The notes beneath the pieces are model-generated. The model searched no databases, was not told the origin of the DNA, and worked only from the letters and a program-made list of their open reading frames with translations. A stretch of DNA of 64,000 nucleotides from a virus. This document shows, in pieces, positions 14,842 to 38,462 of the stretch; position 1 is the stretch's first letter; the number at the start of each line of letters is the position of its first letter. The stretch spans positions 1 to 64,000 of IMG/VR virus record IMGVR_UViG_3300031519_008107; one strand, written 5' to 3'. The translations under genes and the position numbers were made by a program.

Positions 14842-14844
14842 AAG

Positions 14845-15844: not shown

Positions 15845-15845
15845 C

Positions 15846-18657: not shown

Positions 18658-19404
18658 ATGCAGGACATTACGGCTTTAAAAGCTGGACTTAATAAATTAA
18701 GTAGATGTAAAGACAAAATAAAATCTTTACATAATATACATAAAGGTGAGACATGCTATGTTCTAGGATGTGGGCCATCTTTGAAAGATTATAACTTAGA
18801 GCAACTAGAAGAAGTTCTAAGGGATAATTGTGTTATATCTATTAAGCAAGCATTCTTTACTGACCCAGCTCTTATAGATTATCATATAATTAATGATAAT
18901 AATCTTATGACATATCCTGATTTGGATTCTGTTATTAGATTTGTAAGTTGCAGGCTGGAAGGAACAGCAGAACAAGTATCAAAGTTAGCTAAATGGGATG
19001 TATTCACTCCTATAGAGCAAGATCAAGATTTTTCTAAGGCTTTATGTAATAGTTTAGATTTTGATAATTATACTTTAGATAATAAGTATGAAAGACCTTG
19101 GGGACCGGGATTAATTGCAGAACTTGTTTTTTACCTAGCACACCACTTAGGTTTTTCTAATATCATTACTCTAGGTTGGGATCATGAGAAACCCGGAACT
19201 ACAACATCTCACCACTTCTATGACCACGCACTAAGCACTGAACAATTGGTCAACCCAGCTAGTAAAATGTTAGATGACGAGATATCTAGAAATATTAATA
19301 TGAGTAAGGAGTGGTACTTATGGCTCAAAGGTCGTGGTGTTAATCTTTCTACTATTTCTAAAAATTCTTACATTCATGAAATTATTCCAAGGGTAAGTTT
19401 ATGA
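18658..19404 (+). CDS. Maf/DUF115-type nonulosonate transferase-like protein
   Basis: HKGETCYVLGCGPSL, LAHHLGF.NI..LGWD...HFY. Confidence 0.75.
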   Translation: MQDITALKAGLNKLSRCKDKIKSLHNIHKGETCYVLGCGPSLKDYNLEQLEEVLRDNCVISIKQAFFTDPALIDYHIINDNNLMTYPDLDSVIRFVSCRLEGTAEQVSKLAKWDVFTPIEQDQDFSKALCNSLDFDNYTLDNKYERPWGPGLIAELVFYLAHHLGFSNIITLGWDHEKPGTTTSHHFYDHALSTEQLVNPASKMLDDEISRNINMSKEWYLWLKGRGVNLSTISKNSYIHEIIPRVSL

Positions 19405-20234
19405 ACCCAACTTATATTATAGCTGAAATTGGTATTAACCATAATGGTAGTATGGATATAGCTAAAAAGCTAATTGATGTTGCTGCATTTGCTGGTTGCA
19501 ATGCTGTGAAATTCCAAAAACGTAATCCGATTTTATGCGTACCAGAACATCAAAAAAACCAACCCAAAGATACTCCTTGGGGTCAGATGACCTATCTAGA
19601 ATACAAAGACCGTATGGAGTTTAGTCAGATACAGTATGACTGCATTGATAAACATTGCAAAGATAAAGGCATATCTTGGTCAGCAAGTCCTTGGGATTTA
19701 GATAGTCTAAAGTTTTTAAATCAATATGATGTACCATTTATTAAAATCCCCTCTGCCATGTTGACTAATTATAAGTTACTCCAAGCTAGTTGTGACACTG
19801 GTAAACAAATCATCCTATCCACAGGTATGAGTACAGTTCAAGAGATAGATCAAGCTGTTGAGATTTTGCAGAGGAATACAAAAGACTTTGTTATACTACA
19901 TTGCAATTCATCATACCCAGCCGCATTAGAAGACTTAAATTTACAATGTATCAAAACACTCAAAACTAGGTATGGTTGCAAAACAGGCTATAGTGGTCAT
20001 GAGTTCAGGTTGGGAACATCTGTAGCTGCCATATATTTAGGGGCTACTATGATAGAAAGACATATTACTTTAGATAGATCTATGTGGGGCTCAGACCATC
20101 TAGCCTCTGTAGAACCTCAAGGATTGATAAAATTAGTAAAAGGCATTAGAGAACTTGAGATTGCTTTAGGAAACGGTAAGATAGAAATAACTGACAGTGA
20201 ATTAAAACCGAGGAAAAAGCTTAGAGGATATTAG
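19401..20234 (+). CDS. neuB: nonulosonic acid synthase, short form without SAF domain
   Basis: IIAEIGINHNG, AVKFQKR, KIPS, STGM, LHC.S.YP, GYSGH, IERHITL, GSDH.AS. Confidence 0.93.
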   Translation: MNPTYIIAEIGINHNGSMDIAKKLIDVAAFAGCNAVKFQKRNPILCVPEHQKNQPKDTPWGQMTYLEYKDRMEFSQIQYDCIDKHCKDKGISWSASPWDLDSLKFLNQYDVPFIKIPSAMLTNYKLLQASCDTGKQIILSTGMSTVQEIDQAVEILQRNTKDFVILHCNSSYPAALEDLNLQCIKTLKTRYGCKTGYSGHEFRLGTSVAAIYLGATMIERHITLDRSMWGSDHLASVEPQGLIKLVKGIRELEIALGNGKIEITDSELKPRKKLRGY

Positions 20235-20236
20235 AG

Positions 20237-21217
20237 ATGAATTTTAAAGGACAGAAAATTCTTATCACAGGTGGAACCGGCACACTTGGTAAGGCTTTGG
20301 TTAAGAGAATTGTAGAAGGTCAAGGTCATCCTATTGTCTATAGTAGAGATGAAGGTAAACAAGCACTGTTTTTTGGTAATACTAATATTACTAAAATCAT
20401 TGGTGATATTAGAGATTTTGATAAACTTAACACTTCTCTAATTAGACACAAACCAGACATCATCATTCACACGGCTGCACTTAAAAGAATTGATGATATG
20501 GAAATGTATCCAGATGAATGTATAAAAACAAACATTCAAGGCTCAGAAAATGTAGCTAAGGCAGCACTAAGGAATGATATTACTAAATGTATTTTAATTT
20601 CTACAGATAAGGCGTGTCAACCTGTCAATGTTTATGGTTCTTCTAAATTTATAGCTGAACGTGTGTTTACTAATTATGACTACAGTTCAAGTAAAACCGT
20701 ATTTGCATCAGTCAGGTATGGTAATGTTATCTGTAGTAGAGGATCTTTTATCCCTTTATGGTTAGAATTAATTGAAAATAATAAAAATATTAGAGTAACC
20801 TCTATGGATATGACAAGATTTTTGTTTACAATCCAAGATGCGGTTGATACTGTTCTCGATGCTGTCGAATGCTGTGAAGGGGGAGAAGTTTTTATTCCTC
20901 AGATTAATTCATTCGGTATGGAGACTATTATAAAAGCATTAGAACATATGACTCAAAATAAAATTAACTATGAAGTTATGGGGTTAAGACCGGGAGAAAA
21001 GCTACATGAAGATATGTTAGCAGAAACTGAGTTAGATTTTACATACAAAGTACCAGACAAGAATCTTTTATCTGTTAGACCACAGTATTCTAATAGAAGT
21101 TATCAGTCATGGCAAAAATATACAGGACCACATTTTAATTCAGCACTGCATATCAGTAATGATTATAATAGTTTATCTAATTTAATTAGTAAAGGATCTG
21201 AGGAAAGCGAAGACTAA
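20237..21217 (+). CDS. pseB: UDP-GlcNAc 4,6-dehydratase (PseB/FlaA1 family)
   Basis: TGGTGTLG, SRDE.KQ, HTAALK, STDKA..P.N.YG.SK, RYGNV..SRGS, MTRF, RPGEKLHE. Confidence 0.85.
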   Translation: MNFKGQKILITGGTGTLGKALVKRIVEGQGHPIVYSRDEGKQALFFGNTNITKIIGDIRDFDKLNTSLIRHKPDIIIHTAALKRIDDMEMYPDECIKTNIQGSENVAKAALRNDITKCILISTDKACQPVNVYGSSKFIAERVFTNYDYSSSKTVFASVRYGNVICSRGSFIPLWLELIENNKNIRVTSMDMTRFLFTIQDAVDTVLDAVECCEGGEVFIPQINSFGMETIIKALEHMTQNKINYEVMGLRPGEKLHEDMLAETELDFTYKVPDKNLLSVRPQYSNRSYQSWQKYTGPHFNSALHISNDYNSLSNLISKGSEESED

Positions 21218-22551
21218 TGAAAGTAACACATATCGCTTCAGCTACAGTTTTGATAGAACATAAAGATACCAAGATTTTAACAGACCCTTGGTTCGTAGGA
21301 AATGAATATTATGGATCATGGACACACTATCCTCCGATAGATGTAGACTGGAAAATGTTTGATGATGTAGACTATATCTATATATCACATATTCATCCAG
21401 ACCACATGAGCAAAGAAACTCTAGAGAATATTAATGAAGATATTCCTATACTCATTCATACTTATGAAGAAAAATTTGTTAAAAAGAACCTAGAAAGCTG
21501 GGGAAGAAAAGTTATCGAACTTCCTCATGGAGAAAAGTTTGAATGTGGAGATGGATTAAATATTCATATCTATGCAGCAGATAACTGCAACCCCGAAGAA
21601 TGTTATAAATTCTTTGGTTGTGGAAAGATGGAAAGTAAGATGGGTTCTACAGGTATAGACACTATGGCTGTTATAGAAAATGGCGATCAGACTATATTAA
21701 ATGTTAACGACTGCCCGTTTCTTCTGTCTACGAAGACGTTAGATGTTGTACTTGGAAACCATCCAGCTATTGATCTACTGTTAGTCGGTTATGCTGGGGC
21801 AGGATGTTATCCTCAATGTTGGGAGAATTACACTGTTTCAGAAAAGCTGGAAGTGTATGGACCTCAAAAGAAGTTACACTTTTTAAATATGGGTAAGCAA
21901 TATATAGATAAAATTAAACCTAAATATTATATTCCATTTGCGGGAACTTATACGTTGAGAGGTAAGTTTGCTTATCTAGAAAAATATAGGGTAGTACCTG
22001 AACTACAAGACGCTTTAGAATTCTATCAAAAACGATGTCCTTTTGCATCAGGACTACTATTAAATTCTTTAGAGTCTTTTAATTTGGAAACAGGTAAAGC
22101 TTCTAAGAAGTATGAGTCAATAGATATTAATGAAAAACTAAAATATGTAGAAGAAGTCTTGTCACAGTATAAATATGATTATGAATCTGATGATGATGTA
22201 ACATTAGATCAATTCCTTGAACTAATAGATAGTGCGTATAGTAGATATAATGCTAAAAGAGAGCAACTAAACTTCAGCACATCAACAAATATATATATCT
22301 ATCTACCAGATAATAAAATGGCTCTTGTCTCTTGTTCTGGTAAGGGTTACTCTATAATAGATGAAAAAGATTTTGATGATGATAACTATGTAACATACAG
22401 ACTAGATCCTAAACTTTTGCGTAGAATATTGAGAGGTCCAAGATATTCTCACTGGAATAATGCAGAAGTAGGTTCTCATATATTATTTTCTCGCAAACCA
22501 GAGAAATATGAAAGACCACTATACTTTTGCATGAACTACTTCCACATATAA
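21217..22551 (+). CDS. MBL-fold protein resembling CMP-Neu5Ac hydroxylase catalytic domain (no Rieske domain)
   Basis: DPW..G..Y.GSW, YIYISHIHPDH, DT..V......ILN.NDC, YAGAG.YP, YIPFAG. Confidence 0.75.
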   Translation: MKVTHIASATVLIEHKDTKILTDPWFVGNEYYGSWTHYPPIDVDWKMFDDVDYIYISHIHPDHMSKETLENINEDIPILIHTYEEKFVKKNLESWGRKVIELPHGEKFECGDGLNIHIYAADNCNPEECYKFFGCGKMESKMGSTGIDTMAVIENGDQTILNVNDCPFLLSTKTLDVVLGNHPAIDLLLVGYAGAGCYPQCWENYTVSEKLEVYGPQKKLHFLNMGKQYIDKIKPKYYIPFAGTYTLRGKFAYLEKYRVVPELQDALEFYQKRCPFASGLLLNSLESFNLETGKASKKYESIDINEKLKYVEEVLSQYKYDYESDDDVTLDQFLELIDSAYSRYNAKREQLNFSTSTNIYIYLPDNKMALVSCSGKGYSIIDEKDFDDDNYVTYRLDPKLLRRILRGPRYSHWNNAEVGSHILFSRKPEKYERPLYFCMNYFHI

Positions 22552-22558
22552 TATAAAT

Positions 22559-23554
22559 ATGAAATTATTTGCAAGCAACATCAGTGAAGAAGATACAGAT
22601 ATAATAAGTGAAGTTATTAGGTCTGGAGATTTAGGTTTCGGCTCTAATGTTCCGCTGTTTGAAGAGGCTTTCTCGTTTTTTTCCAACAAACAACACAATA
22701 TATCTACAAGTTCAGCATCAGCGTCTGCTTTTATTCTGTTTGCATATATGCAAGAAAAGTATGGATCATGTAATCTATATACAACATCTTTAGGTTTTAC
22801 CTCTCCATTATGGGCAGCAAGACATTTTGGACATACTATTCATTTTGTAGACGTTGACGACAACCTACAATTTTCATCCAAACATTATCATACTCTTAGA
22901 GAACAGACATCATCTAGGAAAACAATAGTCATGCCTGTATTGTATGGAGGCGTATCTAATATTGATAACTTTAACTTGTTTGGAGACGAAATAGTTATAG
23001 TAGATAGCGCCCACTGCGTTACACCTACTATAAATGCTGATTATACATTCTTTTCTTTTCATCCATACAAACCAATATGTGCGTCAGACGGAGGAATGAT
23101 TGCTACTGATGATAAGCAAGCTGCTGATTATTGTAGATCATACAAAAATTTCGGTAGAGAACCTGAAGGCAATGCATATACTATCAAAAAAGATGGTTTT
23201 AAATTTTATATGAATAATTTAAATGCTACGATAGCACTGTCTCAATTAAAAAAATATACAAATAACCTAAAGCATAGACAAGAAAATTTCAAAAAACTTC
23301 AAAATAAATTTGATTTACTTAACCATGATGATAAATCTTCTTACTATTTTGCTACATCTATTACGGATGAAGCTGACAAGATTGTGGATAAGCACAAAAT
23401 AGCTAGACACTACCCTATGTTACACATGATGGATTTTTATAAGAATGGTCAACAATCATTTCGTAAATTACATAATCTAGAAAAACTACACAGTAAAATA
23501 CTAAACTTACCATTATATACAGATATAGATTATGAAAACATTTGTAATAGCTGA
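22559..23554 (+). CDS. pseC: DegT/DnrJ sugar aminotransferase (PseC-like)
   Basis: DSAH, FSFHPYKPI..DGG PLP-lysine motif. Confidence 0.8.
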   Translation: MKLFASNISEEDTDIISEVIRSGDLGFGSNVPLFEEAFSFFSNKQHNISTSSASASAFILFAYMQEKYGSCNLYTTSLGFTSPLWAARHFGHTIHFVDVDDNLQFSSKHYHTLREQTSSRKTIVMPVLYGGVSNIDNFNLFGDEIVIVDSAHCVTPTINADYTFFSFHPYKPICASDGGMIATDDKQAADYCRSYKNFGREPEGNAYTIKKDGFKFYMNNLNATIALSQLKKYTNNLKHRQENFKKLQNKFDLLNHDDKSSYYFATSITDEADKIVDKHKIARHYPMLHMMDFYKNGQQSFRKLHNLEKLHSKILNLPLYTDIDYENICNS

Positions 23555-24581
23555 AGCTGGAGCAAACCACGACAGAAAGTTTGAACAAGCAATAAATTTA
23601 ATAGATGTTGCTAAAGGTGCTGGTGCAAGTGCTGTTAAGTTTCAAACCTATTCATCGGAAACATTATATAGTAAAAATACTCCGGACTTTGCTGGCTATA
23701 AAAATATTAATAAATTAATTAAAAATATAGAACTGCCTAGAGCATGGCAAAAAGAACTTAAAGGATATTGCGACTATGCTGGTATAGAATTTATGTCTAC
23801 CCCATTTGACGAGTCAGCAGTAGAAGAGTTAGTTGATCTAGGAGTTAAAAGGCTTAAAATTTCTGGCTTTGAATCTACTGATCCTAGATTTGTAAGAATG
23901 GTAGCCTCCACAAAACTACCTATTATATTTTCTGCTGGCATAGGATCTACACTTAAATCAATACAAGAAACTATTAGTATTATTAGACAAGAGTATGAAG
24001 AAGCAGATATAACAGTACTGCACTGTAATAATGCTTATCCAACACCGATTGAAGACATTAATCTTAATCAATTAGACAAAATCAAAGAACAGTTCCTACC
24101 TGCCAAAATGGGAGGTATTTGGTTTAGGAATTATGGTACAGACCAAGCTATTAAAATGGGACTGTCAGATCATACTTTAGAAGCATTTACACCGTCACTG
24201 GCTGTAGCAAAGGGAGCTACCTGTATTGAAAAACATTTTACCTTATGTAATCATCTAGAGGGTCCGGACCATAAGTTCGCTATGCCTCCTGAAAAACTTA
24301 GAATAATGATAGATATGATTAAAGAAGCTGAATTGATGTGTAAGTCTACTAATCATGATGTTACAAATAGCGAAAAAGAATTTACCAAAGCTATGAGATC
24401 TGTGGTAGCCTCTCAGGATATAAAAAAAGGAGAAAGATTAACTTTGCAGAATTTAACTACCAAAAGACCGTTTTTAGAAAATTGTATTGCCGCTAAGGAT
24501 TACTATAATATTATAGGTAATATGGCTGAGTGTGATATTGAGACAGATAAAATTTTAGAGGAATCGGATGTTAGAAGGTAA
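23532..24581 (+). CDS. pseI: nonulosonic acid synthase with C-terminal SAF domain (PseI/LegI-like)
   Basis: IAEAGANH, VKFQT, STPFD, LHC..YP, GLSDH, EKHFT, GPDH, RS.VA..DIK.GE. Confidence 0.82.
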   Translation: MKTFVIAEAGANHDRKFEQAINLIDVAKGAGASAVKFQTYSSETLYSKNTPDFAGYKNINKLIKNIELPRAWQKELKGYCDYAGIEFMSTPFDESAVEELVDLGVKRLKISGFESTDPRFVRMVASTKLPIIFSAGIGSTLKSIQETISIIRQEYEEADITVLHCNNAYPTPIEDINLNQLDKIKEQFLPAKMGGIWFRNYGTDQAIKMGLSDHTLEAFTPSLAVAKGATCIEKHFTLCNHLEGPDHKFAMPPEKLRIMIDMIKEAELMCKSTNHDVTNSEKEFTKAMRSVVASQDIKKGERLTLQNLTTKRPFLENCIAAKDYYNIIGNMAECDIETDKILEESDVRR

Positions 24582-25092
24582 AAAATCGTGTCTTACAGCA
24601 GTAAACGAAGATTCGTTAGATCAACTTCGTGAATGGCGTAACGATCCTGATATGAGGCAGTACTTTAGAGAGTACCGTGAAATCAGTGATACCATGCAAA
24701 AAAACTGGTATAATAACATTGCGTCTGATCCTAATCAGGTAAACTTTGAAATTCATGATAAAGATACAAATACACTAATCGGTCATTGCGGTCTATATTA
24801 TATCAATTGGATTGCTAGACACGCAGAGTTTGGTATATACATAGGTCATCCTCATTACAAAGGTGGTGGTTATGGCTCAGATGCTTTGCGTATTTTAATT
24901 CAGTATGGGTTTACAGAACTAAATCTTAATAAGATTTGGTGTGAAGTATATAGCAACAATCAGGCTTTAGATATTTATAGACATATTGGATTTCAGGACG
25001 AAGGTATTTTACGAAAACATCATTTTACTCGTGGTAAATATTGGGATTCTTTAATGTTATCAATATTAAAAAATGAGTTTACATATGAATGA
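24568..25092 (+). CDS. pseH: GNAT N-acetyltransferase (PseH-like)
   Basis: WRNDP, AEFGIYIG, GGGYG, N..A..Y...GF..EG.LR. Confidence 0.75.
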   Translation: MLEGKKSCLTAVNEDSLDQLREWRNDPDMRQYFREYREISDTMQKNWYNNIASDPNQVNFEIHDKDTNTLIGHCGLYYINWIARHAEFGIYIGHPHYKGGGYGSDALRILIQYGFTELNLNKIWCEVYSNNQALDIYRHIGFQDEGILRKHHFTRGKYWDSLMLSILKNEFTYE

Positions 25093-28537: not shown

Positions 28538-28538
28538 T

Positions 28539-29468: not shown

Positions 29469-29764
29469 TAATATATGTAGATATAGATAATACAATATGC
29501 TCCACACCAGAGTCTGGTGAATATTGGAAAGCTACACCTTTATATGAAAGGATAGCTAAGATGAATGATTTATACAACCAAGGTAATCAGATTATATATT
29601 GGACAGCAAGAGGAACAAGAACAGGCCACGATTGGAGAAAGTTAACAGAACAACAATTAGCTAAATGGTTAGTAAAATACCATCAACTACACTTAGGTAA
29701 ACCTGTATATGATTTATTTATAGATGATAAAAATATAAACAGTGAGACATTTTTTAATGAGTAA
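29465..29764 (+). CDS. minimal HAD phosphatase
   Basis: DIDNT, WTARG, GKP..D.FIDDK. Confidence 0.85.
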   Translation: MIIYVDIDNTICSTPESGEYWKATPLYERIAKMNDLYNQGNQIIYWTARGTRTGHDWRKLTEQQLAKWLVKYHQLHLGKPVYDLFIDDKNINSETFFNE

Positions 29765-31960: not shown

Positions 31961-32793
31961 CAAATCTGATTTCTATCTTTGGCTCTAGTGGTTTTATAGG
32001 AGATCAATTCGTTTACTCTTATGGAGGTTATCCTGTTGCAAGAAATGGTGATTCTCCTTTGCATGATAGCGATGTTTTATATTTAATTAGTACAAATCAT
32101 AATTACAATATTTTTGATAATCCATTTATAGACATAAAAACCAACTTAATTAAATTAGTACAAGTATTAGAACGTTTTAAGGAATTATGTCCCAACAATG
32201 TTTTTAATTTTATAAGCTCTTGGTTTGTATACGGAGATACAGAGTATCCTGCAAAAGAAGATAGTTACTGCAACCCTAAAGGCTTTTACTCAATAACTAA
32301 AAGAACAGCGGAACAACTGATAATCTCTTACTGCAATACATTTAATTTAAATTATAGAATACTAAGACTATGTAATGTATATGGAGAGCATGCTACTAAT
32401 GTTTCTAGTAAAAGAAACGCATTGCAATTTATGATAAAACAGATAATTGATAATAAAGACATTAAATTATATAATGGAGGATCTGACGTTCGTGATTTTA
32501 TGCATGTAGAAGATGTTTGCAGGGCTATAAAATTGTGTGTTGACAAAGCATCAAAAAATACAATAATAAATATCGGGAGTGGGATACCTCAAGATTTTAA
32601 ATCTATAATGGAATATACGAAGATGAAAACAAACTCTAGATCTAACTTTATTGATATTGAACCTCCTGAGTTTCATAAGATTGCACAAGTCAAAGATATG
32701 TTTTTAGATGTGAACAAATTAAAAAGTCTAGGTTTTGAACAGCAAATCTCTATACATGATGGCATAGATAGAATTTGCAAATATCATGAATAA
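31957..32793 (+). CDS. NAD-dependent epimerase/dehydratase
   Basis: GSSGFIG, ISS..VYG, YSITK, RL.NVYG, RDF.HV.D. Confidence 0.88.
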   Translation: MTNLISIFGSSGFIGDQFVYSYGGYPVARNGDSPLHDSDVLYLISTNHNYNIFDNPFIDIKTNLIKLVQVLERFKELCPNNVFNFISSWFVYGDTEYPAKEDSYCNPKGFYSITKRTAEQLIISYCNTFNLNYRILRLCNVYGEHATNVSSKRNALQFMIKQIIDNKDIKLYNGGSDVRDFMHVEDVCRAIKLCVDKASKNTIINIGSGIPQDFKSIMEYTKMKTNSRSNFIDIEPPEFHKIAQVKDMFLDVNKLKSLGFEQQISIHDGIDRICKYHE

Positions 32794-33889
32794 TAATTAT
32801 ACAACCTTTTCGGGTGACAATCCGTTTGCAACGCAAGCAAAAATGCTACTGCATTTAGATAAGCTACATCAGTATACTACTCACGGTGATACTGATTGTC
32901 CTATTTTTATGGAAGTAGGTCTGACAGATAAGTGCAATATGGCCTGTTATTGGTGCATTACAGAATTAGGGAGAGATAATAAAGCTGGATTGCACATCAG
33001 TATAGATGCTCTTAAAAAGTATTTTATAGACTTTGCTAACATGGGAGGTAAAGCTGTAACATTTGCTGGTCAGGGTGAACCTACATTTTATCCTCACTTT
33101 GAAGAGGCTGTTATATCAGCCAAAAAAGCTGGTCTAGAATTAGGAATGATGACCAATGCTGTATTCAAAACTAAATACTGTCAATTGATAGCCGAAAACT
33201 TTAACTGGATTCGTATTTCTCTTGACACCTTAGATGAACAAAAATACAAAGAATGGAAAGAGGTTGATGGTGTTAAGGTTATTAAAAGAAATATTGAAAC
33301 AATGCGTGGAATGGGTGATTGTCGTATTGGTATTAATTGTAATGTTGGTCCTAATATCTCTATGCGACATGCTGAGGATTTAGTTAATTGGGTAAATGAA
33401 AGTGATAATATATCATATTTACAATTTAGACCTATCCTTCCAAGATTTTACAAAGAAGCGGAAACAGCATATAAAGAAACTGGCACAGCAGAAATTAATA
33501 TAGAAGTGTGGGATTATCTAGACCATCTGCCTAAAGAACAAATGAAAAAGATCAACCTCAGTGATGATAAACGAAGAGACTTACAAAACGGTACAGCATT
33601 TTCTTTTAGAAGTTGTGAGGGTCATTTTTTTGAACCAATATTAACAGCGGCAGGAGATGTAAAAGTTTGCACATATCATCCTGACGACCCCAAATTATCA
33701 TTCGGTAATATTAATACAGATTCCTTTAAAGATATTTGGCAGTCAGAACAACGTAAAGAAGCAATAAAATATGTTAGATCTCTGAATTATAAAGAAAAAT
33801 GTCAGGTGTGTTGTAAATTATGTGAACCAAATAAGTTATTGGATTTTATTAATCATCCAGAAGAAACTCAGGATAAAAATTTCTTATGA
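32786..33889 (+). CDS. radical SAM / SPASM-domain enzyme
   Basis: CNMACYWC, GQGEP, C-terminal C..G.V..C..FGNI....F..IW..CxxC. Confidence 0.92.
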   Translation: MNNNYTTFSGDNPFATQAKMLLHLDKLHQYTTHGDTDCPIFMEVGLTDKCNMACYWCITELGRDNKAGLHISIDALKKYFIDFANMGGKAVTFAGQGEPTFYPHFEEAVISAKKAGLELGMMTNAVFKTKYCQLIAENFNWIRISLDTLDEQKYKEWKEVDGVKVIKRNIETMRGMGDCRIGINCNVGPNISMRHAEDLVNWVNESDNISYLQFRPILPRFYKEAETAYKETGTAEINIEVWDYLDHLPKEQMKKINLSDDKRRDLQNGTAFSFRSCEGHFFEPILTAAGDVKVCTYHPDDPKLSFGNINTDSFKDIWQSEQRKEAIKYVRSLNYKEKCQVCCKLCEPNKLLDFINHPEETQDKNFL

Positions 33890-34677
33890 GTAAAACCAAT
33901 AAAGTAGCTTGTTTTTACACATCGCTAAAAAATAATGAGGGGACTATGGCATTTACAGAACAATGCTATCCTATGATTGATTATTGGAAGAAAAGCTGGG
34001 AAACAAATGGATGGGAAGCTTTTGTTTTAAGCGAAGAAGATATTGAAAAAGACGAGGATTATTTTACTCTAAAATTTGATAAGTTCGAAGAATCTAATTT
34101 ATGTAAATACACTATAGACTGGGACTGTGAATATTCTAGATCATGTTATCTTAGATGGTTAGCTTATCATCAGTTTGCTAAAAAACACGGAGACATTTTT
34201 TGGTGTGATTATGATATTATTAATTATGGGTTAAGTCCATATAATAGAATTTTACCAAATCATGCGCTTATAGGCTGTAATTCAGCAGGCAGAATGGTCG
34301 ATCCTTTTGGTCAAAAGATTATAAACACATTCATTGAAGTAGAAAATGAAGAATATGATTTTAAGACTTTAGCGAAAATTATTAACTTCCATGATGATCG
34401 TGTGAAAATTAGTGATATGTTTATTACACAAAATCTTGCTAAGATAAGATTGTCTAAACCACATTTAGGTCGAGTCGCTAATGAAACCATTGTAGGTTCG
34501 CAGGAGTTACCCTTCTTAATTCATTACCATAATGGCATTTACAATAAACCAAGACCAAAAGAAAAACAACTAACAGACTTTTCACCTCTGCTATTTAAAC
34601 CAAATGATGATAAGTATTCTAGATTAGAATGTATAAAAATTCTAGAAAAACAACACGGACTTGAACACTATGGATGA
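33886..34677 (+). CDS. putative GT-A glycosyltransferase
   Basis: W..SW...GW, CYLRW.A, DYD (DxD), SDM. Confidence 0.55.
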   Translation: MSKTNKVACFYTSLKNNEGTMAFTEQCYPMIDYWKKSWETNGWEAFVLSEEDIEKDEDYFTLKFDKFEESNLCKYTIDWDCEYSRSCYLRWLAYHQFAKKHGDIFWCDYDIINYGLSPYNRILPNHALIGCNSAGRMVDPFGQKIINTFIEVENEEYDFKTLAKIINFHDDRVKISDMFITQNLAKIRLSKPHLGRVANETIVGSQELPFLIHYHNGIYNKPRPKEKQLTDFSPLLFKPNDDKYSRLECIKILEKQHGLEHYG

Positions 34678-36346
34678 TATAGAAACATTTTTAAAAAAGA
34701 ACGAAGTCCCAGACAGTTTCGATGAAGCTTTCTATATGGAGCGTTATGAAAAAGTATCAAGCTATTATGAACCATATTGTTCGGAAAATGGGATTACGGA
34801 TAAACAAAGACTTTATCATCATTATATATATTACGGCCAACAGATGGGTTTTCAACCACACCCTCGTAAACAAATAAAACAATATGAAGAATTTGACGCA
34901 GAAATATTAAATGAGCCAATATCTCTGGTTGTTGGATGCAAAGACAGAGAAAATATGTTGAGTGTTAGTTTAAGGTCTTGGATTTTACATGACATTATTA
35001 AAGAAATTATTATCGTAGATTGGGGTTCTAAAAAAAGTTTAAAACATTTAGAAAAGGTAGATCCTCGAATCAGAGTTATCCGTGTTGCTAAAAGAAAATA
35101 CTATAATGCAAGCAAGCCTATTAATATGGCTATCAAGACAGCTAAACATGACAAGATTTTAAAAATGGATGTAGATTACATTCTTAATCCTTATCTACCA
35201 CTAGCTAGTTTGATAGATATAAAAAAGGGAGAGTTCGTAGCAGGTGACTGGAGACAGCGACATTTTGATAATCGTCTAGGTTTTATTCAAAATCTAAACG
35301 GTATAATTTGCTCTCATAGAGATTTATTTATAAAAGCTGGGCTGTATAACGAAAAAATTAATAATTATGGCAGAGAAGATTGTGAGATGTTTGAACGTCT
35401 TGAAGCGGCTGGTGGTATTAGAAAACATATAGCATTTTCCAAAGATCATGTTCCTGTATATCATAATCCACACAATGTAAAAGTCAGAGGCAGAAACAGA
35501 CCAAACCCAGACGTTATATCTACAATGATGTACTTTGAAAAGAAGTTTGGAACTAAAAACTTTGAATTAATAATAAATGTTTATAGAGACAAAGATCCCA
35601 AGAGACGAAAAGAAATACTTGATTGCTTAAAACAGAACTTAAAAAATAAATACATAGAACATGTTCATATATTTCTTGAGGATTATGGATCTGGAATCTG
35701 GACACAGAAAAAATTTCCAGAATTTTATAGAATTTTAAACAAATATAAAAACAAGATTACTGTCATAAATGTGGACAAGCGTGTATCTTTTAGAAGAATT
35801 TTTGATTACTGTAACGAGAACATATCTAATAAACAATGTATAGTAGCTAATAATGATATATTGTTCACGAATGATTTGGGTAAGATAAGAGGGGTTAAAC
35901 CTCATGACTTTATAGCTCTAACCAGACATGAAGGTGATAAGCTAATCAAAAACACTAATAGAGAAGCATTTTGTTCACAAGACGCTTGGATTTTCACTAG
36001 TCCAATGGTTGACGATTTAGAAGATATTAAAGACGACACGCTGATTGGCACATTCTTTTCAGATCATATTATAAACTATATGCTGTATCGTGGTCATCAA
36101 TATAATGCTTGGAATATATGTAAAGATATAAAAATTATACATATGCACGAACATGGTACGCCTGACCATAAGAAGTATACAAAGCGTGAAGGAGAAGCAA
36201 TAAAAAATGAATACTGCAATAAATATGGAGATGATGAGTTCTTGCAAATGTTAGTGGCGACAGAAATAGAAGACTACTATCAATCTGAAAAATCTAATTA
36301 CTTTATTACATGGCCTGATTTTGAATTAAATGATTATAAGTACTGA
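34670..36346 (+). CDS. multidomain glycosyltransferase (N-terminal FD..FY domain + GT2/GT7-like + second GT-like domain)
   Basis: IVDWGS, DVD, YNE....YG.ED; C-terminal IVANNDI, ALTR, SQDAWIF. Confidence 0.75.
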   Translation: MDDIETFLKKNEVPDSFDEAFYMERYEKVSSYYEPYCSENGITDKQRLYHHYIYYGQQMGFQPHPRKQIKQYEEFDAEILNEPISLVVGCKDRENMLSVSLRSWILHDIIKEIIIVDWGSKKSLKHLEKVDPRIRVIRVAKRKYYNASKPINMAIKTAKHDKILKMDVDYILNPYLPLASLIDIKKGEFVAGDWRQRHFDNRLGFIQNLNGIICSHRDLFIKAGLYNEKINNYGREDCEMFERLEAAGGIRKHIAFSKDHVPVYHNPHNVKVRGRNRPNPDVISTMMYFEKKFGTKNFELIINVYRDKDPKRRKEILDCLKQNLKNKYIEHVHIFLEDYGSGIWTQKKFPEFYRILNKYKNKITVINVDKRVSFRRIFDYCNENISNKQCIVANNDILFTNDLGKIRGVKPHDFIALTRHEGDKLIKNTNREAFCSQDAWIFTSPMVDDLEDIKDDTLIGTFFSDHIINYMLYRGHQYNAWNICKDIKIIHMHEHGTPDHKKYTKREGEAIKNEYCNKYGDDEFLQMLVATEIEDYYQSEKSNYFITWPDFELNDYKY

Positions 36347-37016
36347 CCATAAAATTATATATCTTTCTAACTGTAAGTGCGCCAGTAGTTGCATTAGACA
36401 AAGATTTATGCCTATTAATAATAAAAAACTTGTGGAGAAAGTTCAAAATTGCGGACTAGGCAATCCACATATGCCATATTCCAAAGTTTTAAAAGCTTTA
36501 GAACAGGAAAATATAGATACTGATGGATTCTTTCTTTTCTCAACTATCAGAAATCCTTGGGAAAGGATAGTAAGTTTATATAAATACGCCAAACCTGATA
36601 AAAACGGTGTGCCTTTTTGGAGTACAAAATTTGGAGTCGAACGTATTGAGGGTACAGAATGTAATTTTGAAGATTTTGTGCTACATGGTTTATACTTCAA
36701 TTACAATAGAACTGCTGGCTCATTTGTTTTTGCTTGTAGAAATGTACAAGATATGTTTGGTGAAGACTATAGTAAATTTAAATTATATAAAAGTGAAGAA
36801 CTAGATATAAACAAAATCATGGATGATATAAATGATCCTAGTCTTGAGAATAAAGTAGACAGAGCAGAGTTAAAAATTGTAGACTCTAATCAATGGCATG
36901 TTACTAAACCAAAACGAGACAGCGAAAATTATAGAGAATATTATAATGATGATCTGCGAGACATAATAGCAAATCACTACAAGCTAGACATAGAGATAGG
37001 AGAATATAAGTTTTGA
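36330..37016 (+). CDS. sulfotransferase family 2 protein
   Basis: KCASS (5'-PSB), RNPWER.VS (3'-PB), Y..YY..D..Y.F. Confidence 0.82.
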   Translation: MIISTDHKIIYLSNCKCASSCIRQRFMPINNKKLVEKVQNCGLGNPHMPYSKVLKALEQENIDTDGFFLFSTIRNPWERIVSLYKYAKPDKNGVPFWSTKFGVERIEGTECNFEDFVLHGLYFNYNRTAGSFVFACRNVQDMFGEDYSKFKLYKSEELDINKIMDDINDPSLENKVDRAELKIVDSNQWHVTKPKRDSENYREYYNDDLRDIIANHYKLDIEIGEYKF

Positions 37017-37684
37017 TAGTATCACACTCTAATAAATTTATATATATAAAAGGAGTAAAAGTTGCTAGCACTTCTACGGAAATATTCTTTGAACAATTTT
37101 GTAACGAAAAAGACATAATAGGATACAGAGGTAAACACCCTATTCCAGATGGTTGTGAGTGGTACAATCACATGAACCCTCAACAAATAAAGGAAAAACT
37201 AAACAATGACCATGTATGGAAAGAATATTTTAAATTCGGCTGCATTAGAAATCCTTGGGATAGGGTTGTGTCTGAGTACTTTTGGTTAAAAGAAAAACTT
37301 AAGTATGATCCGTACTGGTATAAAAGAACAGACAAATGGAAACTGGAAGTTGAGATGCTTGTAAAATTACCATTTGAAGATTATTGTACACAACGGACAA
37401 TAAGACAGAGTTTTTTCTGTTTAAGTCTATATAAGTTCTATCGATTAGATAAATATCATATAGATTTTTTTATAAGATTTGAACACCTATATGACGACAT
37501 ACAGATTGCTTGCGATAAGCTTTCGTTAAATTGTGATATATCAACACTACTACACCAACAAAAATCAAACCATAAACACTATACAGAATATTATACAGAT
37601 GAGACAAGAAACCAAATAGCCAAAACGTATAAAGACGATATAGACTTTTTTAATTATAAATTCGGTGACTACACCTATGATTAG
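37013..37684 (+). CDS. sulfotransferase family 2 protein
   Basis: KVASTS, RNPWDR.VS, RFE.L..D, Y.EYY..DI..F.Y.F. Confidence 0.88.
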   Translation: MIVSHSNKFIYIKGVKVASTSTEIFFEQFCNEKDIIGYRGKHPIPDGCEWYNHMNPQQIKEKLNNDHVWKEYFKFGCIRNPWDRVVSEYFWLKEKLKYDPYWYKRTDKWKLEVEMLVKLPFEDYCTQRTIRQSFFCLSLYKFYRLDKYHIDFFIRFEHLYDDIQIACDKLSLNCDISTLLHQQKSNHKHYTEYYTDETRNQIAKTYKDDIDFFNYKFGDYTYD

Positions 37685-38462
37685 TGCATGGTATTGGAAT
37701 AACGATTTAGATTATCTAAACTTTGGAGAACATATAAATTGGTTGTTGTTAGATTATTTTAATATTGATTGGCAACCATTAATACTTAGAGATACAAAAA
37801 CACACACTAAAGATTGTATCCTTATAGTCGGTTCTGAATTACACAAGTCTGCAATATCTCAGTTAAGCAAATGTGTTGACAACATACACGTTTGGGGTCA
37901 AGGAAAAGGTCATGGTGAGTGCTTTGATTATAAAAATTACAACATTATACCCCATTTAGTTAGAGGTGAATTAACTAGAGATGAATTAAATTTACCTCAA
38001 GATACTCCTATAGGAGATCCGGGATTCGCCTTGCCTGCAATACAACAAATTGCTGATCATCCTAACGATAAAATATTGTACGTCCCGCACCATACACATA
38101 GACAAAATCTAAAACCTAAACGCAGACATCTAAAGTATGATGAATATGTAGATATTATATTTCACAAAAATCAATTTATACCAACTTTATATAAAATTGT
38201 AAATAGTAGATTTGTTATCACTACATCATTGCATGTATCTATAGTTTGCATGGCTTATGGTACTCCGTTTATGATTTATTTAAGACATGATGAAGGAATG
38301 AATTTTCCAAATAAATGGAAAGATGTATACGATTCTCTTGACATAAATCTCAAAGCGTGCTACAATATACAAGACGGCATGAAGTGGTGGCAAACAAATG
38401 TTCAAAATGCTACTATCCCAAATCCTAGTAACATATTAAAAACATTTCCTCATGAACTCTAA
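37677..38462 (+). CDS. polysaccharide pyruvyltransferase (ExoV-like)
   Basis: NFGE, VGS, WG.G, VRG.LT, GDPG, VPH, TSLH. Confidence 0.82.
   Translation: MISAWYWNNDLDYLNFGEHINWLLLDYFNIDWQPLILRDTKTHTKDCILIVGSELHKSAISQLSKCVDNIHVWGQGKGHGECFDYKNYNIIPHLVRGELTRDELNLPQDTPIGDPGFALPAIQQIADHPNDKILYVPHHTHRQNLKPKRRHLKYDEYVDIIFHKNQFIPTLYKIVNSRFVITTSLHVSIVCMAYGTPFMIYLRHDEGMNFPNKWKDVYDSLDINLKACYNIQDGMKWWQTNVQNATIPNPSNILKTFPHEL

What the first reader, a model, noticed from the sequence alone, without database searches (positions are those of the whole stretch)
18658..38462. Phage-encoded ~20 kb nonulosonic (sialic-like) acid biosynthesis, transfer and tailoring island
Seen: 22 co-oriented, mostly overlapping genes, including PseB-, PseC-, PseH-, PseI- and NeuA/PseF-like enzymes, a second NeuB, three Maf/GT29-like proteins (18658, 25073, 26203) and several other glycosyltransferases, inside an otherwise phage-like genome. 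No Wzx/Wzy/ABC export genes, no initiating phosphoglycosyltransferase and essentially no TM segments. Established: PseB-C-H-G-I-F makes CMP-pseudaminic acid, and Maf proteins O-link nonulosonates to Ser/Thr of flagellin in the cytoplasm. Inference: a self-contained cytoplasmic system that coats virion proteins (or another cytoplasmic acceptor) with a sialic-acid-like, sulfated/pyruvylated glycan. This parallels giant-virus fibril glycosylation and is poorly described for bacteriophages. Best candidate for an undescribed system in this window.
Basis: partly seen in the sequence, partly recalled or inferred. Interest (0 to 1): 0.88.

Follow-up and report, generated by a model that had tools for sequence, protein, structure and literature searches.

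The report
Phage sialic-acid-like sugar glycosylation island
An uncultured marine tailed phage devotes about 20 kb to soluble enzymes that should make a sialic-acid-like nine-carbon sugar and a sulfated glycan and attach them to a target that is not a membrane lipid, probably one of its own particle proteins. The same genome slot in its closest relative holds a quite different sugar set.

Summary
Window 18658-38462 contains 22 co-oriented, mostly overlapping genes with no transmembrane segment. The record is an IMG/VR virus fragment (93 kb, about 66% complete), colinear with a complete relative that has a terminase.

Family searches confirm:
- PseB-, PseC- and PseH-like enzymes
- two NeuB-type synthases
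- a cytidylyltransferase
- GT2
- two sulfotransferases
- a pyruvyltransferase
- a radical SAM enzyme

Of the three claimed Maf-like proteins, 18658 passes Pfam MptE-like. ORF 25073 models well, and its best structural match is the Maf glycosyltransferase 5mu5 (Z 11.2). ORF 26203 is only probable.

New here: the island is composite.
- The nonulosonate half (18658-29764) is a cassette. It recurs at 50-72% identity in unrelated phage contigs and is absent from all 18 searched relatives.
- The distal half (deoxyhexose-type SDR, an unknown GT-like family, GT2, sulfotransferases) is shared with the sister phage. That phage's slot holds other sugar genes.

No PseG, NeuC, lipid-carrier, export, integrase or DNA-hydroxymethylase genes were found.

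The virion as acceptor is plausible but untested; no Ser/Thr-rich acceptor was seen. I found no paper describing this. Earlier notes of this scan report similar cassettes on other phage DNA. I rate it a new variant of a known kind.

The parts
18658..19404 (+). MptE-like (DUF115/Maf-type) glycosyltransferase core, 248 aa
   Evidence: PF01973 scores 36.7 bits against a 34.6 cut-off. It has a GCGPS motif. Homologues at 30-35% identity occur in other phage contigs, where the domain forms the C-terminus of 664/688-aa proteins with a GT4-like N-terminal part.
19401..20234 (+). NeuB-family nonulosonate synthase without SAF domain, 277 aa
   Evidence: PF03102 E 2.5e-80, with no SAF hit. Copies at 70-72% identity sit next to the 18658-type gene in other phage contigs.
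20237..21217 (+). PseB-like UDP-GlcNAc 4,6-dehydratase
   Evidence: Polysacc_synt_2 E 6e-80. The best NCBIfam model is PseB, at 263 bits, below the equivalog cut-off of 407.75. It is 60-71% identical to copies on phage-type contigs and 33-38% identical to cellular PseB.
21217..22551 (+). Metallo-beta-lactamase-fold protein, 444 aa, between pseB and pseC
   Evidence: Lactamase_B_3 E 1.5e-8. It has an HIHPDH motif. PDB hits are weak: metal-dependent hydrolases and the diiron oxygenase CmlA. A distant 444-aa MBL protein also lies in G001's island.
22559..23554 (+). PseC-like DegT aminotransferase
   Evidence: PF01041 E 1.5e-41. PseC is the best NCBIfam model, at 114.6 bits, below its cut-off.
23532..24581 (+). 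NeuB-family synthase with SAF domain, 349 aa
   Evidence: PF03102 E 1.3e-65 and SAF E 4.9e-9. The NeuB model scores 297 bits and PseI 248 bits, both below their cut-offs.
24568..25092 (+). PseH-type GNAT N-acetyltransferase
   Evidence: TIGR03585 scores 98.1 bits, above the 93.1 cut-off.
25073..26206 (+). Maf/sialyltransferase-fold glycosyltransferase, 377 aa
   Evidence: 15 of 60 family members hit PF01973. The AF2 model has pLDDT 80.9. VIA matches: Maf 5mu5 Z 11.2, MptE HPPK 9.8, CstII 9.7, GT29 about 8. The Foldseek top hits are the same set.
26203..27066 (+). Probable third MptE-like transferase, 287 aa
   Evidence: It has GGGPS and IDVAGMDG motifs. The ESM Atlas gives a 0.95 match to viral clusters, some with PF01973. 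Homologues at 32-34% identity lie in the same cassette in L039 and L040, and the L040 homologue has a PF01973 match at E 7e-4 over profile positions 16-165. AF2 failed, and hhalign and PDB searches found nothing.
27063..27746 (+). CMP-nonulosonate synthetase (cytidylyltransferase)
   Evidence: CTP_transf_3 scores 40.7 bits against a 22.6 cut-off. PseF is the best NCBIfam model but weak, at 28.7 bits. Copies at 41-66% identity occur in other phage cassettes.
27722..28537 (+). Unknown protein, 271 aa
   Evidence: No Pfam or NCBIfam hit. No homologue in G001 or in L039-L041.
28539..29468 (+). PhyH-like 2-oxoglutarate dioxygenase
   Evidence: PF05721 E 4.3e-7. A PhyH protein also occurs in G001's island.
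29465..29764 (+). 99-aa HAD-type phosphatase
   Evidence: DxDxT, T, K and DD motifs are conserved at 59-63% identity in L039 and L040. Its profile hits PDB 9iqw, 'capsule biosynthesis protein', at E 4e-15, and 1xpj.
29742..30725 (+). SDR epimerase/reductase (GDP-L-fucose-synthase-like)
   Evidence: PF01370 E 1.6e-37. Fcl is the best NCBIfam model, at 91 bits, below its cut-off. 70% identical in G001.
30698..31960 (+). Uncharacterised conserved family, 420 aa (possible glycosyltransferase)
   Evidence: No Pfam hit. 53% identical in G001. 47 homologue clusters exist, none with a Pfam domain apart from one Capsule_synth fusion. HxRxGD and SGFxxW are invariant. No PDB link.
31939..32793 (+). Short SDR (4,6-dehydratase-like)
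   Evidence: PF01370 E 1.9e-29. dTDP-glucose 4,6-dehydratase is the best NCBIfam model. The N-terminal GSSGFIG Rossmann motif is present.
32786..33889 (+). Radical SAM/SPASM enzyme
   Evidence: PF04055 E 3e-19 and SPASM E 2e-9. It has CNMACYWC at residue 50. Absent from G001.
33886..34677 (+). Unknown protein, 263 aa
   Evidence: No family hit. Absent from G001.
34661..36346 (+). GT2 glycosyltransferase with long extra regions, 561 aa
   Evidence: PF00535 scores 27.5 bits against a 23.3 cut-off. 55% identical in G001.
36330..37016 (+). Sulfotransferase (Sulfotransfer_2)
   Evidence: PF03567 E 2e-8. 69% identical in G001. Paralogue of 37013.
37013..37684 (+). Sulfotransferase (Sulfotransfer_2)
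   Evidence: PF03567 E 5.8e-9. 51% identical in G001.
37665..38462 (+). Polysaccharide pyruvyl transferase
   Evidence: PF04230 E 1.2e-9. Absent from G001.
8612..9706 (+). GT4 glycosyltransferase outside the island (possibly the same system)
   Evidence: PF00534 and PF13692 at E 1e-13. 64% identical in G001. A homologue lies beside the cassette on contig L044.
55201..57876 (+). Two further GT4-type glycosyltransferases just before the tail-fibre block
   Evidence: 55201: PF00534 E 9e-16, with a zinc-ribbon insert. 56821: weak PF00534. Both are conserved in G001 at 71% and 47%. A homologue of 55201 lies on L044.

Best explanation
The interval is a phage-encoded glycan factory that works entirely in the cytoplasm. 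It sits in a hypervariable genome slot and is built from two modules.

Module 1 (18658-29764) is a nonulosonate cassette that moves between phage lineages.
- A PseB-like dehydratase, PseC-like aminotransferase and PseH acetyltransferase convert UDP-GlcNAc to a 2,4-diamino-2,4,6-trideoxyhexose.
- A NeuB-type synthase condenses this with PEP to give a pseudaminic-type nine-carbon acid.
- The cytidylyltransferase activates it as the CMP-sugar.
- Two or three short transferases with the Maf/sialyltransferase fold add it to an acceptor.
- A second, SAF-less synthase together with the small HAD phosphatase may supply a second ulosonic acid.
- The missing PseG step is either done by an unrecognised enzyme (the MBL-fold protein or an unknown ORF) or borrowed from the host.

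Module 2 (29742-38462) is conserved in the sister phage.
- It makes a deoxyhexose-type sugar using the SDRs.
- It builds a glycan using GT2 and the unknown 420-aa family, possibly with the GT4 enzymes encoded elsewhere in the genome.
- It decorates that glycan with sulfate, using host PAPS. In this phage it also adds pyruvate ketal and an unknown radical-SAM modification.

Because every enzyme is soluble and nothing links the pathway to undecaprenyl phosphate or to export, the acceptor must be soluble and intracellular. I think it is most likely one or more phage structural proteins, glycosylated before or during assembly. The variable slot would then give related phages different surface 'serotypes'.

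Shown here: gene content, folds, solubility, the composite structure and recurrence in other phages.
Inferred: the sugar's identity, the order of steps and the acceptor.
For: Enzyme families.

Maf/sialyltransferase fold of 25073. PF01973 in 18658.

No transmembrane segments or transporters.

Phage identity and colinearity with a complete relative that carries TerL.

The slot is hypervariable.
- G001 has a 23-kb island at the same site with GT2, GT4, GT15-like, DegT, MocA, hexapeptide acetyltransferase, SDRs and five sulfotransferases in the slot, but no NeuB or MptE.
- None of the 18 searched records of the DnaE lineage has NeuB.

The cassette is a functional unit.
- All 3 unrelated IMG/VR records with a distant 25073 relative also carry NeuB within a few kb.
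- They hold homologues of 18658, 19401, 20237, 22559, 23532, 24568, 25073, 26203, 27063 and 29465.
- The same set occurs on three MAG contigs.

The phage-type PseB is 60-71% identical among these contigs, against 33-38% to cellular PseB picked up by the same patterns. This argues for long residence in viruses.

No tyrosine integrase in G000 or in the complete G001.

Precedent for virion glycosylation by phage-encoded transferases in mycobacteriophages, as summarised in PMC12619734.
Against: - No acceptor is identified. No Ser/Thr-rich or mucin-like structural protein occurs in the fragment or in G001; the highest Ser+Thr content in any 40-residue window is 0.40 or less in real ORFs.
- The island lies among early and nucleotide-metabolism genes, not in the structural module.
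- All core enzymes except PseH score below the NCBIfam equivalog cut-offs, so the sugar's identity is uncertain.
- No PseG or NeuC was found.
- The fold cannot separate protein O-glycosylation from glycan capping.
- The record is only about 66% complete, and its head module is missing.
- The host is unknown.
Confidence: 0.5

Rival explanations
1. Host-directed remodelling. The phage makes CMP-nonulosonate and sulfated sugars during infection to modify host components such as flagellin, pilin, S-layer or other surface proteins. It does this either in the cytoplasm before their export or by feeding host glycosylation machinery. The effect would be to mask receptors, so that progeny are not lost on infected cells or debris, or to exclude competing phages.
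For: - Bacterial Maf enzymes act on a host surface protein in the cytoplasm before export (established knowledge), and 25073's best structural match is Maf.
- The island sits with early, nucleotide-metabolism and host-takeover-type genes, next to a run of small membrane proteins.
- The glycan slot and the distal tail proteins both diverge strongly between G000 and G001: tail proteins are 30-39% identical against 77-92% for replication genes. That is expected if both track the host surface type.
- Missing PseG and PAPS supply imply reliance on host metabolism.
Against: - No integrase was found, so the phage is probably strictly lytic, and 20 kb is a large investment for a short infection.
- The Maf-like proteins lack the extra domains of flagellin Maf enzymes.
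- Nothing in the island links to the envelope.
- If the weak Flavobacteriaceae binning hint is right, the host has no flagella.
Confidence: 0.25
2. A soluble product. The enzymes build a free oligo- or polysaccharide, or glycosylate a small molecule. This accumulates in the cytoplasm and is released at lysis, for example as a decoy, an adhesive matrix or a protective coat that associates non-covalently with particles.
For: - No protein acceptor was identified.
- The 561-aa GT2 with long extra regions could be processive.
- In related cassettes the nonulosonate transferase domain is fused to a GT4-like enzyme, which suggests glycan-on-glycan building.
- Sulfation and pyruvylation are typical of marine exopolysaccharides (established knowledge).
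Against: - No primer or carrier is evident.
- Polymerising GT2 synthases are normally membrane-embedded, and this one has no transmembrane segment.
- The hypervariability of the slot is easier to explain by selection on a structure that is recognised on a surface.
Confidence: 0.12
3. DNA hypermodification. The transferases attach sugars to modified bases of the phage genome, as in T-even phages and the 5hmC glycosylation clusters described by Pyle et al.
For: - The island abuts dCMP deaminase, RNR and the replication module.
- Phage GT clusters that put diverse glycans on 5hmC are documented.
- Another reader noted CCWGG avoidance in this genome (unchecked).
Against: - No C5-methyltransferase or Tet/JBP hit in G000.
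- No thymidylate-synthase-type hydroxymethylase in G000 or in the complete G001.
- Nonulosonate, sulfate and pyruvate would add negative charge to DNA.
- None of the sugars reported's abstract is a nonulosonate.
- The Tet/JBP control search rang nowhere, so that particular negative is weak.
Confidence: 0.04
4. Artefact. The island is cellular DNA joined to phage DNA by mis-assembly, or a decaying, non-functional acquisition.
For: The record is a metagenomic fragment without terminal repeats. Relatives of the cassette occur on contigs binned into bacterial and archaeal MAGs.
Against: - Both flanks are colinear with G001, and the junctions are ordinary tight gene boundaries.
- GC content is uniform across the island and its flanks, 0.31-0.36.
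- All 22 ORFs are intact and translationally coupled.
- The same protein occurs on independent contigs of 88-99 kb.
- The MAG contigs themselves carry homologues of phage genes.
Confidence: 0.02

Closest known systems
Bacterial Maf-dependent flagellin O-glycosylation islands with a pseudaminic or legionaminic acid pathway (Campylobacter, Helicobacter, Aeromonas, Magnetospirillum; Maf structure 5mu5)
   Same: - PseB/PseC/PseH/NeuB-type/CMP-transferase gene set.
- Soluble transferases with the MptE-like (DUF115) fold: PF01973 in 18658, and Z 11.2 to 5mu5 for 25073.
- A cytoplasmic reaction with no lipid carrier.
   Different: - Encoded by a phage, with no flagellin or flagellar genes nearby.
- The transferases are 248-377 aa catalytic cores, against 632 aa for 5mu5, and only its residues 252-508 align.
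- No PseG. An MBL-fold protein sits between pseB and pseC.
- Two synthases plus a HAD phosphatase.
- Coupled to sulfotransferases, a pyruvyltransferase, a radical SAM enzyme and GT2.
- All enzymes except PseH score below the equivalog cut-offs.
Mycobacteriophage virion glycosylation (Freeman et al. 2023, as summarised in PMC12619734)
   Same: Phage-encoded soluble glycosyltransferases are thought to decorate the phage's own capsid and tail proteins in the cytoplasm. The function proposed there is shielding of the particle surface.
   Different: As far as I recall, those systems are small sets of transferases that use host nucleotide sugars (the paper was not held). Here about 20 kb encodes de novo synthesis of a nine-carbon acid plus sulfation. 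Acceptor C-terminal tails are known there; none is identified here.
Giant-virus (Mimivirus/Megavirinae) fibril glycosylation clusters
   Same: A virus-encoded, host-independent pathway for rare bacterial-type amino sugars plus transferases, with clade-specific sugar sets (from my own knowledge).
   Different: Those are viruses of eukaryotes with large fibril proteins as acceptors. No homology or acceptor link was tested here.
CstII (GT42) and GT29 sialyltransferases
   Same: Same fold class as 25073 (Z 9.7 and about 8). N-terminal G-x-G-P-S-type nucleotide-binding motif. CMP-nonulosonate donors.
   Different: Those enzymes cap glycans on lipooligosaccharide or on eukaryotic glycoconjugates. 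Sequence identity is only 8-13%. The catalytic residues were not checked.
Phage DNA sugar-hypermodification gene clusters (Pyle et al., bioRxiv 10.1101/2023.12.21.572611)
   Same: Phage clusters of repurposed polysaccharide-type glycosyltransferases in variable neighbourhoods.
   Different: Those depend on a cytosine methyltransferase plus a 5mYOX/TET enzyme, or on a hydroxymethylase. None was found here. They install hexose, HexNAc or heptose, not nonulosonates.

Membership tests
Pseudaminic acid pathway (PseB-C-H-G-I-F) | PseB: inverting UDP-GlcNAc 4,6-dehydratase | tested here: inconclusive
   Among the NCBIfam models, 20237 scores best against PseB TIGR03589, at 263 bits. This is below the 407.75 cut-off. 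FnlA scores 205 bits and LegB 47.6 bits.
Pseudaminic acid pathway (PseB-C-H-G-I-F) | PseC aminotransferase | tested here: inconclusive
   PseC TIGR03588 is the best model for 22559, at 114.6 bits, far below the 423.5 cut-off. LegC scores 68.9 bits.
Pseudaminic acid pathway (PseB-C-H-G-I-F) | PseH N-acetyltransferase | tested here: met
   TIGR03585 scores 98.1 bits against a 93.1 cut-off for 24568.
Pseudaminic acid pathway (PseB-C-H-G-I-F) | PseG UDP-sugar hydrolase | tested here: not met
   A six-frame search of the whole record with TIGR03590 at E<=1 gave no match, while the control genomes did. There is also no NeuC/Epimerase_2 match. The record is a fragment, so a copy elsewhere in the genome cannot be excluded.
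Pseudaminic acid pathway (PseB-C-H-G-I-F) | PseI synthase | tested here: inconclusive
   Both synthases are NeuB family (PF03102). Each scores higher on the NeuB model (270 and 297 bits) than on PseI (206 and 248 bits). All scores are below their cut-offs.
Pseudaminic acid pathway (PseB-C-H-G-I-F) | PseF CMP-pseudaminate synthetase | tested here: inconclusive
   27063 passes Pfam CTP_transf_3 (40.7 against 22.6). PseF TIGR03584 scores only 28.7 bits against 205.7.
Maf (motility accessory factor) flagellin glycosyltransferases | Central MptE-like/DUF115 catalytic domain | tested here: met
   18658 passes PF01973 above the cut-off. For 25073 the best structural match is Maf 5mu5 (Z 11.2, rmsd 3.7, 192 residues aligned), and 15 of 60 relatives hit PF01973. 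26203 is inconclusive.
Maf (motility accessory factor) flagellin glycosyltransferases | Additional N- and C-terminal Maf domains (Maf_flag10_N, acceptor-binding regions) | tested here: not met
   The proteins are 248, 377 and 287 aa and have no further Pfam domain. The alignment to the 632-aa 5mu5 covers only its residues 252-508.
Maf (motility accessory factor) flagellin glycosyltransferases | Flagellin as acceptor; flagellar gene context | not testable with these tools
   I saw no flagellar genes among the proteins scanned in the record. The host is unknown.
Tailed phage (Caudoviricetes) genome | Tail and tape-measure module, phage-type replication genes | tested here: met
   PHROG tail, minor tail and fibre hits, a 2132-aa tape measure protein, DnaB, primase, UvsX and split DnaE. 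The record is an IMG/VR virus record.
Tailed phage (Caudoviricetes) genome | Large terminase and major capsid protein | tested here: inconclusive
   Neither was found on this 66%-complete fragment. The colinear complete relative G001 has a Terminase_6N match above the cut-off.
Wzx/Wzy- or ABC-dependent surface polysaccharide loci (O-antigen, capsule) | Initiating phosphoglycosyltransferase, flippase, polymerase or ABC exporter (membrane proteins) | tested here: not met
   No such Pfam family occurs among the 22 proteins. No hydrophobic segment reaches 1.7 in any island protein, and there is no multi-pass protein in the record.
Phage DNA sugar-hypermodification clusters | Base-activating enzyme (C5-MT plus TET/5mYOX, or dCMP/dUMP hydroxymethylase) | tested here: not met
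   No PF00145 or PF12851 match in G000. No PF00303 match in G000 or G001. The Tet_JBP control rang nowhere, so that negative is weak.

The most novel reading that the evidence does not exclude
Marine tailed phages keep an O-antigen-like hypervariable locus for their own particles. Interchangeable sugar cassettes, including a virus-adapted, PseG-independent pseudaminic-type pathway, are swapped between phage lineages. A virus-specific class of short Maf-like transferases then writes the sugars onto virion proteins. The result would be phage 'serotypes' coated with sialic-acid-like, sulfated glycans.
Probability: 0.35. Interest if true: 0.85.

Novelty: new variant of a known kind. Interest (0 to 1): 0.7.

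Why it matters
Sialic-acid-like sugars are known as surface decorations of bacteria and animals. I found no description of them as products of bacteriophage genomes in six full-text literature searches.

If phages coat themselves, or their dying hosts, with such sugars, several things would change:
- how marine phage adsorption, decay, grazing and aggregation are understood;
- how much weight is given to the large, mostly unannotated class of short viral MptE-like proteins, for which the ESM Atlas lists clusters of 180-240 members, 95-100% viral;
- the enzymology of the pathway, since new enzymes would be on offer: a pseudaminic-type route without PseG, and CMP-nonulosonate transferases with non-flagellin acceptors.

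The slot comparison also gives a concrete test system. Two phages with replication proteins about 77-92% identical carry different sugar sets at the same site.

Tried and rejected
**Searches for relatives**
- Megablast of 21 kb of the phage against GenBank phages found no match.
- tblastn of NeuB against 50,697 phage records found only 3 weak hits, one of them a bacterial contig.
- IMG/VR scans with NeuB alone and with the close 25073 family found nothing. One JGI metagenome scan also found nothing.
I therefore could not inspect the 88-99 kb ENA/Logan contigs that carry the closest 25073 relatives.
- 'Relatives' cannot be drawn for a virus record.

**Fold and homology of the Maf-like and unknown proteins**
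- Single-sequence PDB searches of 25073, 26203 and 18658 found nothing.
- Profile PDB searches for the 26203, 18658 and 30698 families found nothing meaningful.
- hhalign among the three Maf-like candidates aligned only the GxGPS or GxD motifs, with probability 11% or less.
- Smith-Waterman z-scores between them were 0-1. Their common origin therefore rests on Pfam and structure, not on mutual similarity.
- AF2 of 26203 with a 2-sequence alignment failed, with pLDDT 35.

**Acceptor**
There are none in G000 or in the parts of G001 that G000 lacks.

**Missing steps and rival mechanisms**
- No PseG or NeuC.
- No Tet/JBP, C5-methyltransferase or ThyA-type enzyme.
- No integrase.
- No APS kinase.
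- No tRNAs in the window.

**Head genes**
- PHROGs and Pfam found no capsid or terminase on this fragment.

**Ideas left as leads**
- I considered 31939 a truncated SDR, then rejected that because the Rossmann motif is present.
- I recalled that the HxRxGD motif of 30698 resembles fucosyltransferase motif I. No tool result supports this.

Full report
**What the record is**

The window is bases 1-64000 of a single 93,104-bp contig. The search tools identify this contig as an IMG/VR virus record, linear, with a CheckV completeness of 66%. GC content is uniform at 0.31-0.36 across the island and its flanks.

Almost all genes up to 61.5 kb are on the + strand. The rest are on the - strand.

The flanks encode typical phage functions:
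- DnaB-like helicase, primase, exonuclease, a DnaE-type polymerase split into two ORFs, and UvsX
- PhoH, class II RNR, dCMP deaminase and HNH endonucleases
- a sigma-factor-like protein and proteases
- GMP reductase
- on the - strand, a 2132-aa tape-measure-sized protein and proteins with PHROG tail, minor-tail and fibre hits

No terminase or capsid family matched on this fragment. However, 27 IMG/VR loci encode close relatives of the DnaE N-half. The closest is G001 (IMGVR_UViG_3300030451_004287, 159,659 bp, completeness 100%), with 87% identity.

G001 is colinear with the whole of G000. Bases 1-93,104 of G000 correspond to about 47.1-146.2 kb of G001. G001 has a Terminase_6N match above the Pfam cut-off.

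**The observation**

Twenty-two + strand ORFs fill 18658-38462. Spacing runs from -28 to +7 nt, and 18 of the 21 junctions between them are overlaps. Pfam and NCBIfam give the following:

| ORF start | Assignment | Key score |
|---|---|---|
| 18658 | MptE-like | PF01973, 36.7 bits vs 34.6 cut-off |
| 19401 | NeuB family, 277 aa, no SAF domain | |
| 20237 | PseB-like | Polysacc_synt_2 E 6e-80; PseB model 263 bits |
| 21217 | MBL-fold protein, 444 aa | HIHPDH motif |
| 22559 | DegT/PseC-like | |
| 23532 | NeuB plus SAF | |
| 24568 | PseH | 98.1 bits, above the 93.1 cut-off |
| 27063 | CTP_transf_3 cytidylyltransferase | |
| 28539 | PhyH-like dioxygenase | |
| 29742, 31939 | SDRs | |
| 32786 | radical SAM/SPASM | CNMACYWC |
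| 34661 | GT2, 561 aa | |
| 36330, 37013 | Sulfotransfer_2 paralogues | |
| 37665 | polysaccharide pyruvyl transferase | |

No island protein has a hydrophobic 19-residue window above 1.67. There is no multi-pass membrane protein anywhere in the record.

Only PseH reaches an NCBIfam equivalog cut-off. The family assignments are therefore firm, but the exact sugar is not.

**The three 'Maf-like' proteins**

- **18658** is directly supported by Pfam.
- **25073** has no Pfam hit. A profile of its six close relatives found 83 proteins in the 1.8-billion-protein library, and 15 of 60 aligned members hit PF01973. With that alignment AlphaFold2 gave pLDDT 80.9 and pTM 0.79. Foldseek ranks archaeal MptE HPPK first, then CstII and GT29 sialyltransferases. 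VIA-align puts the Maf glycosyltransferase 5mu5 first (Z 11.2, rmsd 3.7 Å, 192 residues), followed by MptE HPPK (9.8), CstII (9.7), a Pasteurella sialyltransferase (8.9) and mammalian GT29 enzymes (about 8). Unrelated folds drop below Z 5.
- **26203** stays unproven. The AF2 model failed. PDB and hhalign searches found nothing. In its favour, it has the GGGPS and IDVAGMDG motifs in the expected order, and an ESM Atlas match of 0.95 to viral clusters, some carrying PF01973 (a lead only). Its 32%-identical homologue in another phage has a sub-threshold PF01973 match across profile positions 16-165 (E 7e-4).

All three are short catalytic cores. The alignment to the 632-aa Maf covers only its residues 252-508.

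**The island is composite and sits in a hypervariable slot**

In G001 the genes flanking the island are conserved: the 18388 ORF at 84% identity and dCMP deaminase at 90%. The 23 kb between them differs.

The slots share only these genes:

| G000 gene | Identity in G001 |
|---|---|
| SDR 29742 | 70% |
| unknown 30698 | 53% |
| GT2 34661 | 55% |
| sulfotransferase 36330 | 69% |
| sulfotransferase 37013 | 51% |

G001's slot otherwise holds GT2, GT4, a GT15-like enzyme, Glyco_trans_1_2, two DegT ORFs, a GFO/IDH/MocA oxidoreductase, a hexapeptide acetyltransferase, an MBL-fold 444-aa protein, three further SDRs, three further sulfotransferases and PhyH.

G001 has no NeuB and no MptE-like gene. None of the 18 searched records of this DnaE lineage has NeuB.

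**The nonulosonate half recurs in unrelated phages**

A scan with distant members of the 25073 family found three IMG/VR records: G019 (70.9 kb), G020 (60.9 kb) and G021 (155.7 kb, 96% complete). None has a relative of this phage's DnaE. All three have NeuB genes within a few kb.

tblastn shows homologues of the G000 cassette genes in these records:

| G000 gene | Identity in other phage records |
|---|---|
| 18658 | 34-35% |
| 19401 | 71-72% |
| 20237 | 62-69% |
| 22559 | 50-53% |
| 23532 | up to 54% |
| 24568 | 36% |
| 25073 | 23-27% |
| 26203 | 32-34% |
| 27063 | 41-60% |
| 29465 | 60-63% |

A scan of GTDB genomes with the PseB-like alignment found the same cassette on three small MAG contigs. 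One is binned as Thaumarchaeota and two as Flavobacteriaceae, with 60-71% identity. One of these contigs also carries homologues of phage genes 8612, 54816 and 55201.

Genuine cellular PseB sequences caught by the same patterns (Campylobacterota, Brevibacterium, Pelagibacter) are only 33-38% identical. That scan is pattern-based and not exhaustive. Still, it suggests a virus-resident clade rather than a recent capture from a host. It also gives a weak host hint towards Flavobacteriaceae.

**Further annotation**

- **29465** (99 aa) is a minimal HAD-type phosphatase with DxDxT, T, K and DD motifs. Its profile hits PDB 9iqw, 'capsule biosynthesis protein', at E 4e-15. Together with the SAF-less synthase, this may indicate a second route through a phosphorylated intermediate. 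This is inference.
- **30698** belongs to an uncharacterised family of 47 clusters with no Pfam domain. HxRxGD and SGFxxW are invariant, and there is no PDB link.
- In L039 and L040 the 18658-type domain is the C-terminus of 664/688-aa proteins. The N-terminal 416 aa of the L039 protein resemble GT4 enzymes; the best PDB hit is chlorovirus glycosyltransferase B736L (E 2e-4). That suggests this transferase caps a sugar rather than a protein side chain.
- Four more glycosyltransferases lie elsewhere in the window, at 6721, 8612, 55201 and 56821.

**What is missing**

- No PseG or NeuC
- No APS kinase
- No tyrosine integrase in G000 or G001
- No C5-methyltransferase or Tet/JBP in G000
- No ThyA-type hydroxymethylase in G000 or G001
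- No tRNA in the window
- No Ser/Thr-rich or mucin-like structural protein in G000 or in the parts of G001 that G000 lacks

**Interpretation**

The following are well supported, at about 0.85:
- a nonulosonate is synthesised and CMP-activated;
- it is transferred by enzymes with the Maf/sialyltransferase fold;
- the whole system is soluble and independent of lipid carriers;
- a second module builds a sulfated glycan.

The acceptor is inferred. I favour phage structural proteins, at about 0.5 for the full statement, for four reasons:
- The acceptor must be cytoplasmic.
- The phage appears lytic.
- The investment is large.
- The slot varies between close relatives in the way surface-antigen loci do.

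Host-directed modification (0.25) and a free glycan (0.12) remain serious rivals. DNA modification (0.04) and artefact (0.02) are unlikely.

**Literature and earlier notes**

Six full-text searches found no paper describing nonulosonate biosynthesis or Maf-like transferases encoded by phages.

The nearest published themes are:
- phage enzymes that tailor host capsule nonulosonates in Acinetobacter (PMC12053666, PMC6586298);
- mycobacteriophage virion glycosylation (cited in PMC12619734);
- phage DNA glycosylation clusters.

The library lacks most subscription journals, so this absence is not proof.

Earlier AI notes of this scan describe similar phage cassettes on other genomes: e1-5934123, e1-5731649, e1-5736084, e1-5836451 and e1-3287580. 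I used them as leads only. My own independently show the recurrence.

Noticed in passing
window 50395-54741: The DnaE-type polymerase is encoded as two ORFs (618 aa and 532 aa) with an exonuclease-subunit-like gene (52436-53146) between them. The arrangement is conserved in G001. Other notes of this scan already cover it.
   Followed up: no
window 14315-18654: A run of about nine small ORFs, each with one or two hydrophobic segments, lies directly upstream of the island together with a 323-aa protein that has a weak papain-like hit (16647-17618). All are conserved in G001. This may be a lysis or host-membrane module.
   Followed up: partly
window 9748-10935: A 395-aa protein with a C-terminal PAP2 phosphatase domain but no strongly hydrophobic segment, 82% identical in G001. 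It sits next to a GT4 gene (8612) and GMP reductase (7581).
   Followed up: no
window 751-1578 and 41925-42605: The two HNH endonuclease genes have no syntenic counterpart in G001. For 751-1578 the only G001 match lies elsewhere in that genome, and 41925-42605 has none. They look like mobile homing-type insertions.
   Followed up: partly
G001 (L031-L038), about 6.8-16.2 kb and 148.4-157.9 kb: The 'complete' relative contig carries two diverged copies of the head/terminase block, and its first 30 bases recur at 146,035. The contig probably wraps around a genome of about 146 kb with strain variation, so 159.7 kb overstates the genome size.
   Followed up: partly
L034:12853-13740 (G001 island): The sister phage's island encodes a protein matching Glyco_transf_15 (E 6e-18), a family known for eukaryotic alpha-1,2-mannosyltransferases. 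This is unusual in a phage.
   Followed up: no
L042, L043, L044 (GTDB MAG contigs): Small contigs binned into one Thaumarchaeota MAG and two Flavobacteriaceae MAGs carry the phage-type nonulosonate cassette, and L044 also carries homologues of phage genes. These are probably phage contigs mis-binned into MAGs. This gives only a weak host hint.
   Followed up: partly
window 21217-22551: An MBL-fold 444-aa protein with HIHPDH sits between the PseB-like and PseC-like genes, and a very distant 444-aa MBL protein sits between DegT and an acetyltransferase in G001's island. It may be part of amino-sugar pathways in these phages and a candidate for the missing nucleotide-releasing step.
   Followed up: partly
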